Notes under the pieces: generated by a model | What the model was told of the DNA's origin: nothing | What the model saw: only the letters and a program-made list of their open reading frames with translations | Database searches by the model: none | Program-made: the position numbers and the translations under genes | Source: a virus | Lineage: Duplodnaviria; Caudoviricetes | Length of the DNA: 29,075 bases | Reading direction: 5' to 3' (one strand) | Virus record (IMG/VR): IMGVR_UViG_3300034989_000049 | Coordinates: 1 to 29,075 of that record | Shown: positions 1 to 29,075 of the stretch, piece after piece | Position numbering within the stretch: the first letter of the stretch is position 1 | How the letters are laid out: every line of letters begins with the position of its first letter

Positions 1-42
1 GAACAGGAACAAAAAATGCAGCCAATGAATCCAAAGACATAA
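1..42 (+). pseudogene. Possible 3' remnant of a lost upstream gene (portal-like Q/M/P-rich tail)
   Basis: Reads EQEQKMQPMNPKT-stop. Across the circular junction the frame hits TGA (28925-28927) seven codons upstream with no ATG between. This position, before the scaffold/MCP block, is where portal genes usually lie. Confidence 0.35.
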
Positions 43-127
43 AAAGAACAGATGTGCGTCCCTGTAATTTAAGGGTAGAATATTGCACTTTCGATGCAAT
101 TGTCTCGGTTCGAATCCGGGTGGGGAC
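1..127. repeat. Terminal direct repeat, left copy (circular overlap)
   Basis: 1-127 is identical to 28949-29075; 127 equals a common maximum assembler k. Confidence 0.95.
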
Positions 128-144: not shown

Positions 145-603
145 ATGCGAAATCACTATCCGATTGGCCAAAAGATATTGCATGATTTAGGAAGTTATGC
201 ACCGATTATAAACAAAGCAGAGATGGCAAAGATTACTCAGCAAAGTTATAAAGAGGTATTACAAGAAAGTCTTAATGATGGCTATAGAAAAACCAGGGGG
301 GATTTTTTTGTAGAGATGCATTTTAAGCGTGATGCACTTTTCTTTAAATTATTTAAGATTATACCTCGGTTACGTTTAAGGTGTCCTGTTCCTATGTATG
401 GACGTGCTCTATTTCACTATAAAAGAAAAGAAGATAGAGTAGAAATGTTATGGCACATTCCTCAGAAGTTTTTCTTTGATCATCCTGAATTGTTGCATAT
501 CGGAGAAGAAGGAAACCAAGAATTACTTGAAAATATGGCTGCTTTTAGAAGAGGTGATTTTTTTAAGATATATGAATCATTTATCAGTAAGGAGAATGCA
601 TGA
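145..603 (+). CDS. Hypothetical phage head-module protein
   Basis: AAGGAG RBS before ATG at 145 (the ORF-track start at 94 overlaps the tRNA); ATGA overlap with the next gene. Confidence 0.8.
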   Translation: MRNHYPIGQKILHDLGSYAPIINKAEMAKITQQSYKEVLQESLNDGYRKTRGDFFVEMHFKRDALFFKLFKIIPRLRLRCPVPMYGRALFHYKRKEDRVEMLWHIPQKFFFDHPELLHIGEEGNQELLENMAAFRRGDFFKIYESFISKENA

Positions 604-1298
604 CTGAACAAGAAGACATAAAAGAATCCGTACCAGAAAGTGCGCCAGAAGAACAACAAGAGGAACTTCAAGAGCGGCAAGAAACTGAAAGTGTACAAGA
701 AGAAGAAAAAGAAGATATAAGATCACGAAATTTGCGGCTTATTGCACAGGCAAAAGAAAAAGTAGAGCAACAAAATAAATATTTACTTAACGAAAAAAAA
801 CAACTGCAAGAGAAAATTAAAAAATATGAGTCTGAATATGAAGATCTTGATGATACATCAGATGAAAAAGAATATGTTAAAGAAATACAAGAATTAAAAG
901 AACAACAAGCTGCTTTAATGCAGCAAATGAACTTAGAAAGAGCCGAAAAGCAAATTGTAACAAAGTATCCTGATTTTGCAGATGTGGTAAGCAATGTAAA
1001 TATGGCTATTTTACAGGAACAAGACACAACGCTTTATGATAAAATACAAGAAGAACCTGATATTATAAAAAAGGCTGATTTGGCTTATAAAGGTATTTTA
1101 AAACACAACATTTACGAAGCAGCAACGAATGCACAAACAAAAAAAGAAGCTATATTGCGTAATATGAAAAAGCCTAGACCAGCGGGTGCTCTTCCCAAAG
1201 AAGGAAATGTAGATGTAGCACCTATTGATAGACTTAATTCGCCGCAATATCAAAATGAACTACGTAGAAAAGCTCAACTTGCCCGATCAAGACTGTAA
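600..1298 (+). CDS. Putative capsid scaffolding protein
   Basis: Acidic E/Q-rich N-terminus, coiled coil, KYPDF motif, basic C-terminus; directly upstream of the MCP. Confidence 0.75.
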   Translation: MTEQEDIKESVPESAPEEQQEELQERQETESVQEEEKEDIRSRNLRLIAQAKEKVEQQNKYLLNEKKQLQEKIKKYESEYEDLDDTSDEKEYVKEIQELKEQQAALMQQMNLERAEKQIVTKYPDFADVVSNVNMAILQEQDTTLYDKIQEEPDIIKKADLAYKGILKHNIYEAATNAQTKKEAILRNMKKPRPAGALPKEGNVDVAPIDRLNSPQYQNELRRKAQLARSRL

Positions 1299-1335: not shown

Positions 1336-1390
1336 ATAATCGGGAGACGTGAATGCATTCATGTTTCCCGATTATTTCTTGTTATTTTTT
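1336..1390 (+). terminator. Intrinsic terminator after the scaffold gene
   Basis: Long stem ATAATCGGGAGACGTGAAT/ATTCATGTTTCCCGATTAT (G-U wobbles favour the + strand) followed by a T-rich tail. Confidence 0.7.
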
Positions 1391-1408
1391 GACAACATAT
1401 ATTATCAT
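1379..1408 (+). promoter_or_regulatory. Candidate sigma70 promoter for the capsid transcript
   Basis: TTGTTA-N18-TATCAT would put the start near 1415, the first base of the structured leader. Confidence 0.35.
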
Positions 1409-1414
1409 AGAAGG

Positions 1415-1548
1415 GAGCGTTAAAAATTCTAAGCGCATCGCTCACGCTTAGAGGCGTTAAACGAAGCAAAGGAATTCGCCATTCTTGATTATCGTATGAA
1501 TTGCTATCATACAGGCGTTAAATTGTTCGAAAGAATTCGCCGATCTTT
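1415..1548 (+). ncRNA. Structured RNA leader with three tandem pseudoknot units
   Basis: Three (A/G)GCGTTAA boxes (1416, 1453, 1514), each followed by a hairpin whose loop holds the complementary TCGC(T/C); an extra hairpin GTATGA/TCATAC at 1494-1512. Confidence 0.65.
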
Positions 1549-1581
1549 AAGATAAAACATTTTTTATTTTAAGGAGACATC

Positions 1582-2535
1582 ATGGCAAATCTTACAACAT
1601 TAGAAAACATTCCTCTTTCCTTAAAAGCAGAACTATCAGATACTGTTTTTTTGGATCCAGAACCTAATTTTGTATACACCAAGACAGCCATTATGACCCA
1701 ATTAAAAAAGGGACATGGGGATACAAAACGGTTTCCAAAGTATTCACGTGCTGATGCATTTACTACCCCTCTTCCAGAATCTGAATTAGATATTGACCCT
1801 CAAGTACTTGCAAAGACATTTATTGATGCACAAATTGCTTATTATGGTACTTATTTCCTTATCACTGAAAGAACAGTAGATCAAAATCCAGAAGATATAT
1901 TGCGTGTTCATGCGGACGAATTAAATTCAGCATTAAGAAAGACAGAAGACTTGCTTACCCGTGATATTTTACTTACAACTACCGCATCTATTCCATGTGT
2001 TTCAGGTGGAAATGGTGATATGCCAACACAACTAAGTGAAAAGGATTTATCTGCAGTAATTGCAACACTTGCAGGTGCTATTGCAAAACCAATTAAAGAA
2101 ATGATTCAAGGTTCTAATAAAATTGGAACTGCACCAGTTGCACAAGCATATATGGGTATTACCCATCCAGATCTTATTCCTGATCTTGAAGCTATGGATG
2201 ATTTTGTACCTGTTGAGAAGTATGGCTCAGGCTATAATCCAATGGATGCAGAATGGGGTGCGTATTCACGTATTCGTTTTGTGCAAACAACACAAGTACG
2301 TAAAGATACGGGCACATCTATTTTAGGTGCTACTGTATATAACAATTTAATATTGGGTAAAGATGCGTTCACACTTGTTAAACAAGGTGGTGAGAATGGC
2401 ACACTTGTTGGTCCTACAAAAACAGGCGCTCTAGAAGATAAATATCGATTTGGTATTAAGACTTCTTTTACGGGTGCATTACTCTTTGATCAACATGTTG
2501 CTAAAGTAACTTCTACCCGTTCAACCGCCTTATAA
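1582..2535 (+). CDS. Major capsid protein, N4-gp56-like family
   Basis: Motifs YGxYxxITE, TEDLLTRDIL, KIGTAPV..AY.GI.HPD, F.PVEKY, EWG...RF; strong TAAGGAG RBS. Confidence 0.88.
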   Translation: MANLTTLENIPLSLKAELSDTVFLDPEPNFVYTKTAIMTQLKKGHGDTKRFPKYSRADAFTTPLPESELDIDPQVLAKTFIDAQIAYYGTYFLITERTVDQNPEDILRVHADELNSALRKTEDLLTRDILLTTTASIPCVSGGNGDMPTQLSEKDLSAVIATLAGAIAKPIKEMIQGSNKIGTAPVAQAYMGITHPDLIPDLEAMDDFVPVEKYGSGYNPMDAEWGAYSRIRFVQTTQVRKDTGTSILGATVYNNLILGKDAFTLVKQGGENGTLVGPTKTGALEDKYRFGIKTSFTGALLFDQHVAKVTSTRSTAL

Positions 2536-3563: not shown

Positions 3564-3599
3564 AATATTGGCGCTCTTTTAAAAGAGCGCCAATATTTT
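3564..3599 (+). terminator. Perfect 34-bp palindrome, probable terminator
   Basis: AATATTGGCGCTCTTTT|AAAAGAGCGCCAATATT (3564-3597) straight after the head genes. Confidence 0.7.
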
Positions 3600-20810: not shown

Positions 20811-21986
20811 ATGAAAAAAATAATATTATTTTTACTTTTAAGTGTCTCATCCGTAGATGCAGGTATCATTGGAAAAACCCCTGTTTTTATTAAGCATCCC
20901 TGCTCTGCCTTTAACAAAAAAAAAGCAGAAAATTTTAAAGTAGGCGACTCAGTTCTTTCATCAATCGATGTAAACGGGAACATCAAATCTATTTCTATTA
21001 AAATTCAAAATATAGAAAAGCATCAGACAAACAGAATTGTATTTATAAGAACAGAACATGGCCAATTAATAGTTGACCCTGAGGAACGTTTTTTTTCTTT
21101 TAATCGACTAAAATGGATAAAAGCAAAGTACTTAAATCGATGTGATACTTTAACCACCTTGCAAGGACGAGAAGTTCGCTTAAAAGAAATAGCATATCTC
21201 ACCTTGTTGGTACCGGTGGACATTTATAATTTTACACTTGAAGCGTGTCCTGTTTTATATATTGCTGATTCAAGTGGAGAATCACTTCTTATTCACAATG
21301 AACCCGTCACATTGATGAGTTTATATCTTGCGAGCTTGCCGGTTAAGATTTCTTTAATATCCTCAACTACTATTCCAACCATTCTTGGTTTTTTATGGAC
21401 CTTTACTGCACCAGCGGTTGTGGCTGTTCATTGTTATGCTATAGGACGAGGAATAGGATTGGCAACCAAAAAAGCATATCATGGCATCACGAGTTTTTTT
21501 CATCATCGCAGACGCAAGAAAGAACTGCGAAGAGTAATAAAAGAAGCATATCCAGAAATTTCCTCACCACCTACATTAGTACGAAATACACAAGATATCG
21601 TTGAAAAACTTAAAAAAATAGATGATAGAATGGCTAAAATAAAAGATGCACAAAAACCATCTGGTGGAAAAGACCCCGATCCAAAAGATGAAGAACGTAA
21701 ACTACAAGAAATCAACTACAAATACAGTCATAGAAATAGTAGGCAATTACGTAAAGGACATAAATCATCATTCAAGAGATTAAGTGAACACGTTGATAAA
21801 CTTAAAAAATACATAGAGAACCCAGACAAATATGATGATCGAGGTCTTTTAACCAATGCATCTGAAGAACAACGAGTAACCATTATTAATACCCGCGTAA
21901 ACCATCTGATAAAAGAAATTAATAACTTTACTAACGAGTGTGAAGAAATACAAAATGCACTTGAATATCTCAATAAAACGCTCTAA
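20811..21986 (+). CDS. Secreted Hint-domain polymorphic toxin
   Basis: Signal peptide (MKKIILFLLLSVSSVDA); Hint motifs (F.VGDSVLS, WIKAKYL, IYNFTLE...LIHN); hydrophobic segment; DPDP linker; C-terminal EHVDKLKKYIENPDKYDDRGLL domain resembling Rhs/CdiA-type toxin tips. Confidence 0.75.
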   Translation: MKKIILFLLLSVSSVDAGIIGKTPVFIKHPCSAFNKKKAENFKVGDSVLSSIDVNGNIKSISIKIQNIEKHQTNRIVFIRTEHGQLIVDPEERFFSFNRLKWIKAKYLNRCDTLTTLQGREVRLKEIAYLTLLVPVDIYNFTLEACPVLYIADSSGESLLIHNEPVTLMSLYLASLPVKISLISSTTIPTILGFLWTFTAPAVVAVHCYAIGRGIGLATKKAYHGITSFFHHRRRKKELRRVIKEAYPEISSPPTLVRNTQDIVEKLKKIDDRMAKIKDAQKPSGGKDPDPKDEERKLQEINYKYSHRNSRQLRKGHKSSFKRLSEHVDKLKKYIENPDKYDDRGLLTNASEEQRVTIINTRVNHLIKEINNFTNECEEIQNALEYLNKTL

Positions 21987-22321: not shown

Positions 22322-22522
22322 ATGGCACAGAAAAAAAAATGGATACAAGCAGCTATAAAAAAACCAGGTGCTCTGCGTAAAACACTTGGTGCAAAAAAGG
22401 GAAAAGATATTCCAGAAAAAAAATTAAAAAAAGCAGCAAAAAAGAAAGGCATCACAGGACGCAGGGCTCGATTGGCACTTACCTTAAAAAAACTTTCTAA
22501 GAAAAAAAAGAAAAGTAAATAA
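22322..22522 (+). CDS. Small Lys-rich phage protein
   Basis: KWIQAAIKKPGALRKTLG...GRRARLALTLKK, a recurrent phage mini-protein motif. Confidence 0.8.
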   Translation: MAQKKKWIQAAIKKPGALRKTLGAKKGKDIPEKKLKKAAKKKGITGRRARLALTLKKLSKKKKKSK

Positions 22523-22770
22523 TGCCAATACGCAAACCAGAAACAAAAAAAGAAAAGAAAAAAGCTGTTGAAACAGTTATGCATGAATTTAAGTCTGGTG
22601 CATTGCATAGTGGTTCTAAAAAAGGACCTCTAGTGACAAGTAGAAAGCAAGCAATTGCAATTGCATTGTCAGAATCAGGCCAATCTAAATCATCTAAGAA
22701 AAAACGCAATCGTTCTGGAAAAAGAAAAACAAAAAAGAAAATTTCTCATAAAAAAAAAGAGGAGAAATAA
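22522..22770 (+). CDS. DUF6496-like basic protein
   Basis: VMHEFKSGALHSGSKKGPLVTSRKQAIAIALSE signature. Confidence 0.8.
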   Translation: MPIRKPETKKEKKKAVETVMHEFKSGALHSGSKKGPLVTSRKQAIAIALSESGQSKSSKKKRNRSGKRKTKKKISHKKKEEK

Positions 22771-28948: not shown

Positions 28949-29075
28949 GAACAGGAACAAAAAATGCAGCCAATGAATCCAAAGACATAAAAAGAACAGA
29001 TGTGCGTCCCTGTAATTTAAGGGTAGAATATTGCACTTTCGATGCAATTGTCTCGGTTCGAATCCGGGTGGGGAC
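28949..29075. repeat. Terminal direct repeat, right copy (includes tRNA-Glu 29006-29075)
   Basis: Identical to 1-127. Confidence 0.95.

What the first reader, a model, noticed from the sequence alone, without database searches (positions are those of the whole stretch)
1415..1581. Tandem triple-pseudoknot RNA in the major capsid gene leader, with internal covariation
Seen: between a terminator and the MCP RBS lie three units of a 5' box followed by a hairpin whose loop is complementary to the box. Unit 1: GAGCG-TTAA (1415), stem TTCTAAGCG/CGCTTAGAG, loop caTCGCTCa. Unit 2: GGCG-TTAA (1453), stem AGGAAT/ATTCTT, loop TCGCC. Unit 3: GGCG-TTAA (1514), stem AAAGA/TCTTT, loop containing TCGCC. The box and loop change together (AGCG:CGCT vs GGCG:CGCC) while the stems differ in sequence, which points to selection on RNA structure. 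A fourth hairpin (1494-1512) has a TTGCT loop complementary to AGCAA at 1465-1469. Inference: a repeated protein-binding RNA module. It could be a capsid/scaffold autoregulatory operator (as with the T4 gene 32 pseudoknot), an assembly or packaging RNA, or a mimic of ToxI-type pseudoknot antitoxins. I do not recognise it as a named Rfam family.
Basis: partly seen in the sequence, partly recalled or inferred. Interest (0 to 1): 0.85.

Follow-up and report, generated by a model that had tools for sequence, protein, structure and literature searches.

The report
Pseudoknot array gating phage capsid translation
The capsid-gene leader of this uncultured phage carries three copies of a small RNA module, predicted to fold as a knot, that recurs in dozens of related and two unrelated phages and matches no Rfam family; its last copy likely works as a switch that uncovers the ribosome-binding site when a still unknown partner binds, which would be a new way for phages to control capsid production.

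Summary
Three box-plus-hairpin units lie at 1415-1548. The same module occurs in 39 of 43 distinct long capsid leaders of relatives, and the box-loop pairs covary when units are found blind to those pairs (83 of 94 and 67 of 94). The fourth hairpin is a decayed unit, and its proposed pairing is at chance level. (1) The 3' stem strand of the last unit is an anti-Shine-Dalgarno that competes with the knot (27 of 43 leaders). (2) Where the scaffold gene abuts the capsid gene, the module sits against the scaffold's ribosome-binding site (25 of 28), often after a circularly permuted copy. (3) Two phages with an unrelated capsid and scaffold carry the same array and switch. Best reading: a cis-acting translational control element of the head operon, ON when the last knot is stabilised; the ligand is unknown. 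A ToxI mimic, packaging RNA or DNA operator is unlikely. No Rfam match; it could be an anonymous candidate in Fremin 2023 (alignments unreadable). This scan noted pseudoknot arrays in other capsid leaders before; I could not check whether they are this motif.

The parts
145..603 (+). Conserved gene of unknown function before the scaffold gene (152 aa from the ATG at 145); candidate trans factor only
   Evidence: Present in 24 of 24 near-complete genomes compared; confident model, pLDDT 89.6; no PDB fold match; not found in G036/G037
600..1298 (+). Putative scaffolding protein gene (232 aa); candidate ligand
   Evidence: Position before the capsid gene, acidic coiled-coil make-up, present in 24 of 24 genomes; nearest named Atlas cluster is Phage-scaffold, a weak lead (19% of members)
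1336..1375 (+). Terminator-like hairpin after the scaffold gene
   Evidence: 18 pairs plus T-rich tail
1379..1408 (+). Sigma-70-like promoter (-35 at 1379-1384, -10 at 1403-1408); predicted start near 1414-1416, at the first box
   Evidence: 9 of 12 consensus match, not significant alone; a similar -10 hexamer ends 8-10 nt before the first box in 16 of 39 leaders (no shuffle control)
1415..1453 (+). Unit 1: pseudoknot with 5-bp box-loop helix (1415-1419 with 1439-1443) and 9-bp stem (1427-1435 with 1445-1453)
   Evidence: a strain contig changes two unpaired loop bases and turns one G-C into G-U
1453..1486 (+). Unit 2: long-linker unit; box 1453-1456 pairs with 1477-1480; stem 1469-1472 with 1483-1486
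1487..1512 (+). Decayed short-linker unit: hairpin 1494-1512 kept, box and loop motif eroded
   Evidence: Aligns with intact units of L005, L009, L012, L013; pairing with 1465-1469 is at chance level
1514..1548 (+). Unit 3, the switching unit: box 1514-1517 pairs with 1538-1541; weak stem 1530-1534 with 1544-1548
1544..1575 (+). Alternative 14-bp anti-SD hairpin that uses the 3' stem strand of unit 3 and covers the Shine-Dalgarno (1571-1576)
   Evidence: MFE and ensemble, pairing probability 1.00; mean SD accessibility 0.02 with the strand free and 0.44 with it removed
1582..2535 (+). Major capsid protein, N4-gp56 family (317 aa), first gene of the structural operon
   Evidence: TIGR04387 131.9 bits, cut-off 60; phrog_1357 E 1e-25

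Best explanation
The leader is an array of one small RNA module (a 3-5 base box that pairs with the loop of the next hairpin downstream, predicted to form a compact pseudoknot) that likely acts in cis as a translational ON-switch for the major capsid gene: a bound partner would stabilise the last knot and so pull its 3' stem strand away from the Shine-Dalgarno sequence. Shown by sequence comparison: the module, its covarying pairs, its tie to the start of the head genes, the competing anti-SD helix and the weaker stem of the last unit. Inferred: that the RNA is made from the promoter just upstream, that the upstream units are stable docking sites adding avidity, and that the partner is a protein recognising shape rather than many bases. 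In phages whose scaffold gene abuts the capsid gene, the same module touches the scaffold's ribosome-binding site without an anti-SD, where a bound protein would more likely block or recruit the ribosome. The single phage ligand that makes both layouts homeostatic is unassembled scaffolding protein (less scaffold in one layout, more capsid in the other); I give it about 0.3. A host translation component such as S1 or the 30S subunit gets about 0.25 and would explain the spread to unrelated phages.
For: Units found without using the outer box-loop pairs: 94 in 39 of 43 long leaders, against a mean of 11 in shuffles. The third pair is Watson-Crick in 83 of 94 (permutation maximum 61) and the fourth in 67 of 94 (maximum 49). 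The loop fits its own upstream box better than the next box in 32 of 43 adjacent pairs, the reverse in 1. Repeated in 31 further leaders: 56 and 53 of 65 (maxima 42 and 40). The last stem strand pairs with the ribosome-binding region at P>=0.5 in 27 of 43 hand-anchored leaders, against 16.1 expected with the middle shuffled. Own duplex energy averages -6.20 against -3.84 kcal/mol for cross pairs, reached by 0 of 10,000 permutations. Last-unit stems are weaker (median -2.7 vs -4.5 kcal/mol, 24 vs 62 units). All 11 clusters of three or more units in 35 scanned records lie in the head-operon leader. In 25 of 28 scaffold leaders a unit ends 7-19 nt before the start codon (shuffle mean 4.2). G036 and G037 have the array and an 8-bp anti-SD helix before a capsid of another family. 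[quoted passage not shown]
Against: The anti-SD pairing is below P 0.5 in 16 of 43 leaders, including 4 of the 7 closest (L004, L009, L012, L030), and removing the strand raises SD accessibility by more than 0.15 in only 22 of 43. Stem 3' strands are pyrimidine-rich in all units (5' strands 71% purine), so some SD complementarity comes free. Scaffold-first leaders show no anti-SD, so the switch is not universal. G036/G037 share no detectable scaffold, capsid or pre-scaffold protein with the main group (1 of 42 families hit, an accessory one), which counts against a single phage-encoded ligand. Units are related by descent and duplication, so permutation counts overstate independence. All energies are nested-model predictions; no pseudoknot was folded in three dimensions and no binding was tested.
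Confidence: 0.6

Rival explanations
1. Small-molecule or ion riboswitch: each unit is an aptamer and the last one has a translational ON platform, tuning capsid synthesis to host metabolism.
For: Aptamer-platform architecture with a poised last unit; presence in unrelated phages fits a host-derived ligand; the core survives circular permutation.
Against: Few bases are fixed. All four box-loop pairs vary, the inner two included (L213, L239, L251, L208, L221), and an extra base inside the box is tolerated in 11 of the 25 scaffold-leader calls. That leaves a U before the loop match and an A after the box. Scaffold-first leaders have no competing helix. No Rfam riboswitch matches.
Confidence: 0.12
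2. Ligand-free stabiliser and timer: the knots bury the 5' end and block 5'-dependent decay so that capsid mRNA outlasts upstream mRNA, while the last knot forms first during transcription and leaves the SD open for a limited time.
For: The predicted start falls on the first box; copy number varies from 1 to 5; sequence is loose and structure strict; no ligand is needed to explain spread to unrelated phages.
Against: It does not explain why the module sits 1-6 nt from the SD in most scaffold leaders or why a permuted copy inside a hairpin is kept. In 4 of 28 measurable leaders the array starts within 30 nt of the upstream stop, with no room for a promoter, so it is not always at a primary 5' end, although it could still guard a processed end.
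Confidence: 0.15
3. Nascent-RNA antiterminator (like HK022 put or lambda nut sites) for the long structural operon.
For: Promoter-proximal position at the head of an operon of about 15 kb in most members.
Against: Covarying helix to the SD; arrays without a promoter upstream; few strong + strand terminator-like sites between 1582 and about 16,100 in the window.
Confidence: 0.07
4. Mimic of a type III (ToxI/CptI-like) antitoxin, or a packaging/assembly RNA acting in trans.
For: Tandem small pseudoknots, as in ToxI and CptI repeats (passages, PMC4627078).
Against: Type III antitoxins are toxin-specific near-repeats, whereas neighbouring units here have unrelated stems. CptI has a one-base first loop and a long A-rich last loop, the reverse of these units (last loop 0-3 nt). 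No terminator separates the array from the capsid gene, and the last unit is wired to the SD.
Confidence: 0.04
5. DNA-level repeated operator or late-promoter element.
For: Boxes look like spaced inverted repeats next to a promoter.
Against: Box-to-loop distance runs from 9 to 36 nt, a whole hairpin can be inserted in the linker (L004, L030), G-U pairs are accepted, and circularly permuted copies exist.
Confidence: 0.02

Closest known systems
Phage T4 gene 32 translational operator
   Same: Pseudoknot in a phage mRNA leader bound by a protein for translational control (passage in PMC10690425).
   Different: One knot, and repression (recalled). Here 1-5 tandem units, and in capsid-first leaders a helix competing with the SD that predicts activation.
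Phage P22 scaffolding-protein autoregulation
   Same: Post-transcriptional control of head-protein supply by the scaffold (passage, 10.1101/2022.12.13.520362).
   Different: No RNA element of this kind is described in what I could read; the primary paper (PMC255007) is not held. P22 proteins were not compared.
E. coli thrS and rpsO operators
   Same: Structured elements next to the SD bound by a protein; thrS uses two hairpins (passages, PMC3858243). The scaffold-first layout (two units, spacer, SD) resembles it. Many unit loops fit a 7-nt anticodon-like register (all three flanking pairs in 37 of 86).
   Different: Different sequence and topology; here the loop bases are paired with the upstream box, and the loop triplet varies.
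Translational ON riboswitches; fluoride (crcB) aptamer as nearest look-alike
   Same: Pseudoknot whose 3' strand competes with an expression-platform helix. The 5' half looks like the first helix and knot strand of the fluoride aptamer (resemblance recalled, not from a call).
   Different: The fluoride aptamer needs a Mg2+ pocket and a long-range A-U linchpin (passages, PMC8752731) carried by a long connecting segment (recalled) that these units lack; no Rfam match.
Type III antitoxins ToxI and CptI
   Same: Tandem small pseudoknots (PMC4627078).
   Different: Loop proportions reversed, units not near-identical, no toxin gene, cis wiring to the capsid SD.
Anonymous candidates DNAVirus_3698, DNAVirus_865 and DNAVirus_5613 of Fremin et al. 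2023
   Same: Listed within 25 bp of capsid_maj_N4 (37 and 4 cases) or capsid_maj_Podo (52 cases) genes in the same kind of viral contig collection (supplement rows).
   Different: Cannot tell: their alignments are in files that could not be read. The tables give 1-2 covarying bases, and the main text mentions no tandem or repeat motif.

Membership tests
Any Rfam 15 family | Covariance-model match at or near the gathering score | tested here: not met
   No match on the leader at E<=1 in the window; only tRNAs in 20 related loci; two weak matches outside the leaders in 10 loci at E<=5
Conserved pseudoknot motif | Compensatory changes in both crossing helices | tested here: met
   Box-loop pairs covary blind; hairpin stems have unrelated sequences across units; inner pairs swap in L213, L239, L251, L208, L221. 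No phylogeny-aware test was run.
Translational ON switch (riboswitch or protein-activated leader) | Sensor helix mutually exclusive with an SD-covering helix | tested here: met
   27 of 43 capsid-first leaders and both unrelated phages; not seen in scaffold-first leaders
Translational ON switch (riboswitch or protein-activated leader) | Ligand binding shifts the structure and the output | not testable with these tools
   Needs probing and reporters
Fluoride riboswitch (crcB) | Rfam model match and long connector bearing the ion pocket | tested here: not met
   No Rfam hit; the last loop is 0-3 nt
T4 gene 32-type autogenous operator | Product of the downstream gene binds and represses | not testable with these tools
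   The predicted sign is activation in capsid-first leaders; binding untested
Type III antitoxin (ToxI/CptI) | Near-identical tandem repeats upstream of a ToxN/CptN-type RNase | tested here: not met
   Adjacent units differ; the downstream gene is a capsid; no toxin family among 37 window ORFs scanned with Pfam
Type III antitoxin (ToxI/CptI) | Short first loop and long A-rich last loop | tested here: not met
   CptI description against first loop 2-13 nt in most units and last loop 0-3 nt here
put-like antiterminator | Promoter-proximal RNA | tested here: inconclusive
   Promoter-like site in many leaders, but no room for one in 4 of 28
put-like antiterminator | Read-through of downstream terminators | not testable with these tools
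   Needs transcription assays

The most novel reading that the evidence does not exclude
A portable, circularly permutable RNA sensor that unrelated tailed phages use to set head-protein supply: one ligand (unassembled scaffold, or a host molecule reporting cell state) read by the same knot, wired as an activator of the capsid gene in one genome layout and as a brake on the scaffold gene in the other. That would be the first assembly-state sensor or riboswitch controlling a phage capsid gene.
Probability: 0.3. Interest if true: 0.9.

Novelty: new variant of a known kind. Interest (0 to 1): 0.74.

Why it matters
How tailed phages match capsid to scaffold supply is known in few cases, and the RNA side of it is largely undescribed in the papers I could search. 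This motif gives a defined element of about 25-35 bases with compensatory mutants supplied by nature, a built-in ON/OFF helix and two genome layouts that predict opposite effects, so the question can be tested with ordinary reporters. It is common: the sister capsid group has at least 569 confirmed stretches in the viral collection, and nearly all sampled members carry the module in one layout or the other. A natural RNA fold that occurs both in tandem and circularly permuted is also a good target for structure work, and a small ON-switch could be useful as a part in synthetic biology.

Tried and rejected
Expression: no RNA holder listed among 14 runs, which says nothing either way. Distant 360-aa N4-gp56 capsids: no array in 43 of the 44 loci with upstream sequence, a lone box in 2. 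Named phages and plasmids gave only distant capsid matches (20-32% identity), and the genome collection one weak hit, so the host is unidentified. Pattern scans for the window-type unit outside the clade: of 85 stretches only known-clade leaders had more than one unit; of 24 stretches most were coding chance hits, with one good single unit before a tRNA (L114). Trans factor: no gene family that both tracks the element and has an RNA-binding fold; the pre-scaffold protein has no Pfam, PDB sequence or Foldseek match and matches only uncharacterised phage proteins; the wider structure search could not be run. A fifth box-loop pair is at chance level (23 of 94). A strict anticodon-loop mimic is only partly met (37 of 86). 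No unit was found at scaffold starts of 19 capsid-first genomes beyond scattered low-scoring calls. Literature: ten searches returned no description of this motif; most subscription papers are not searched, the Weinberg 2017 supplement was unreadable, and so were the Fremin 2023 alignment files.

Full report
Setting. The window is a tailed-phage record. ORF 1582-2535 is an N4-gp56-family major capsid protein (TIGR04387, 131.9 bits against a cut-off of 60), preceded by a scaffold-like gene (600-1298) and followed by head and tail genes on the same strand. The record is a 29,075-base piece of a 37,829-base contig (G001), bounded by two copies of a tRNA; portal and terminase families are missing from the window. 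Between scaffold and capsid lie a terminator-like hairpin (1336-1375) and a promoter-like site (1379-1408).

Observation. The seven-base box occurs nowhere else on either strand, and none of 1,500 shuffles of the intergenic region gave more than one box-and-loop match. The fourth hairpin is real, but its proposed partner is a chance-level match (48% of 2,000 shuffles). It aligns with intact short-linker units of four relatives, so the window has a short-long-short-long array in which the third unit has decayed. One strain contig (one run of four laid, depth 8.3) differs at three leader positions: two unpaired loop bases and one G-C to G-U change.

Close relatives. Six further distinct leaders with capsids 61-70% identical (L004, L005, L009, L012, L013, L030) each have 3-4 boxes, with unrelated stems and in two cases a whole hairpin inserted in the first linker.

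Sister group. A profile search found a large sister group of 315-aa capsids. A scan with a four-sequence alignment confirmed 569 of 600 stretches, and the best 80 were kept. With the close set this gave 87 leaders, 71 distinct: 43 with a long gap before the capsid gene and 28 where the scaffold gene abuts it. A finder that needs only the two inner pairs and a hairpin called 94 units in 39 of the 43 long leaders (30 shuffles: mean 11, maximum 18) and one unit in 3 of the 28 short ones. The next pair out was Watson-Crick in 83 of 94 (54 G-C, 28 A-U, 1 U-A; 10,000 permutations, maximum 61) and the one after in 67 of 94 (47 G-C, 12 A-U, 7 U-A, 1 C-G; maximum 49). A fifth pair was at chance. For 43 neighbouring units with different boxes, the loop fitted its own upstream box better in 32 and the following box in 1. 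These counts include 8 calls that I later judged spurious and dropped only for the composition tables. A second set, from a pattern scan (114 stretches, 88 distinct), repeated this in 31 distinct leaders chosen by hand after leaving out six contigs already used: 56 and 53 of 65 units; for the 32 units whose box the pattern did not fix, 24 and 21. The inner pairs also swap in some phages (L213, L239, L251, L208, L221; read by eye). Units are related by descent, so the permutation figures overstate independence; the within-leader test is less exposed to this. In 86 kept units the base before the loop match was always U, the base after the box was U in 81, and the stem's 5' strand was 71% purine. 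The conserved U in a short loop recalls a U-turn (label from memory).

A switch at the 3' end. In the window the 3' stem strand of unit 3 forms instead a 14-bp hairpin over the Shine-Dalgarno. The nested OFF fold is -16.0 kcal/mol. The ON state sums to -17.6 in stacking before a pseudoknot loop penalty; with a penalty of roughly +7 to +10 (recalled) it would be 5-8 kcal/mol less stable, a gap a ligand could pay. With the last unit anchored by hand in all 43 long leaders, its 3' strand paired with the ribosome-binding region at P>=0.5 in 27, against 16.1 when the middle was shuffled with both ends kept. The strand plus eight bases paired better with its own ribosome-binding region than with others (-6.20 vs -3.84 kcal/mol; 0 of 10,000 permutations), over gaps of 27-98 nt. 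Against this, 16 leaders fall below 0.5, among them 4 of the 7 closest, and SD accessibility rose by more than 0.15 in only 22. Last-unit stems are weaker than upstream ones.

A second layout. In 35 records scanned, all 11 clusters of three or more units were in the head-operon leader. Where scaffold abuts capsid, the module moves to the scaffold leader: a unit ends 7-19 nt before the start codon in 25 of 28 (shuffles: mean 4.2, maximum 7; two of the 25 look misparsed, and the three misses look like variants by eye). No anti-SD is apparent there. Upstream of it many leaders hold a hairpin in which the loop motif sits in a bulge and the box in the terminal loop, that is, a circular permutation of the unit (18 automatic calls of 28, at least one spurious, no shuffle control; clear in L175, L203, L219, L237, L241, L250). 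Keeping the same contacts in a different chain order argues for a defined three-dimensional fold.

Beyond the family. L330 and L424 (G036, G037) carry three units starting 14 and 30 nt after the scaffold stop, and an 8-bp anti-SD helix, before a 431-aa capsid of another family (phrog_14242; NF033394 below cut-off). Of 42 protein families of the main group only one accessory family hit these records. The 360-aa N4-gp56 group lacks the array.

Mechanism. Shown: a conserved, covarying module tied to the start of the head genes, with an SD-competing helix in most capsid-first leaders. Inferred: transcription from the adjacent promoter, folding as drawn, a ligand, and the sign of control. I commit to a cis-acting translational control element that is ON when the last knot is stabilised (0.6). 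Few fixed bases and a variable copy number favour a multimeric protein over a metabolite. Free scaffold is the one phage protein that makes both layouts homeostatic, with P22 as precedent, but the unrelated G036/G037 proteins weaken it. S1 or the 30S subunit is the host alternative, since pseudoknots were selected as S1 binders. A riboswitch (0.12), a ligand-free stabiliser and timer (0.15), a put-like antiterminator (0.07), a ToxI mimic or packaging RNA (0.04) and a DNA operator (0.02) follow.

What is known. No Rfam match. Ten paper searches found no description (listed under Tried and rejected). Papers seen: PMC10690425, passages and table rows of supplements 3 and 5, with supplement 4 searched without a hit and the alignment files unreadable; PMC5737381, passages only; PMC4627078, PMC3858243, PMC8752731 and 10.1101/2022.12.13.520362, passages; PMC2115188, reference-list passages. 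HK022 put, lambda nut, U-turn geometry and the layout of the fluoride aptamer are recalled. Fremin 2023 lists three anonymous candidates next to the same two capsid families, which may or may not be this motif. Earlier notes of this scan describe pseudoknot arrays in other capsid or scaffold leaders; none matched by sequence, and they are unchecked leads, not support.

Verdict. A real, widespread, uncatalogued RNA motif family with a testable switch architecture. Its kind (a cis-regulatory leader acting on translation) is known; the module, its permutation and its two wirings appear not to be described. Interest 0.74.

Noticed in passing
window 1-127 and 28949-29075: The 127-base terminal repeat holds a tRNA with a TTC (Glu) anticodon. 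The window is the part of G001 (37,829 bases) between two copies of that tRNA, so the circle is probably an assembly artefact or a deletion form lacking portal and terminase.
   Followed up: yes
L114 1501-1531 (- strand), record G035: A single unit matching the window's long-linker type, with a new stem, lies a few bases before a tRNA-Lys/tRNA-Gly pair in a contig with no capsid of this family. It may be chance (one of 24 pattern hits) or a use outside capsid leaders.
   Followed up: partly
G004, G005, G007, G010, G017 (scaffold to capsid) and G021-G029 (before the scaffold): The stretch just upstream of the promoter and array varies by 1-3 kb between genomes, so it behaves as an insertion hotspot in both layouts.
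   Followed up: partly
window 3564-3597: Perfect 15-bp inverted repeat between two structural genes, ending just before the next Shine-Dalgarno; source of the weak Rfam hit.
   Followed up: no
window 145-603: Gene present in all 24 genomes compared, with a confident alpha/beta model and no match among solved structures.
   Followed up: partly
window 20811-21986: 391-aa ORF with a weak HINT-domain match (PT-HINT, E 2e-5, below cut-off).
   Followed up: no
window 22322-22770: Two small lysine/arginine-rich ORFs, one DUF6496, from a family found in 20 of 24 genomes; possible nucleic-acid binders.
   Followed up: no
L387 1501-1560 (G039): Two unit-like elements about 185 nt upstream of a 428-aa ORF that is not a capsid; not examined further.
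   Followed up: no
L330 1623 onward versus P0020 N-terminus: The unrelated 431-aa capsid and the sister-group capsids both begin with a threonine-rich stretch followed by Leu-Pro; could be chance.
   Followed up: no
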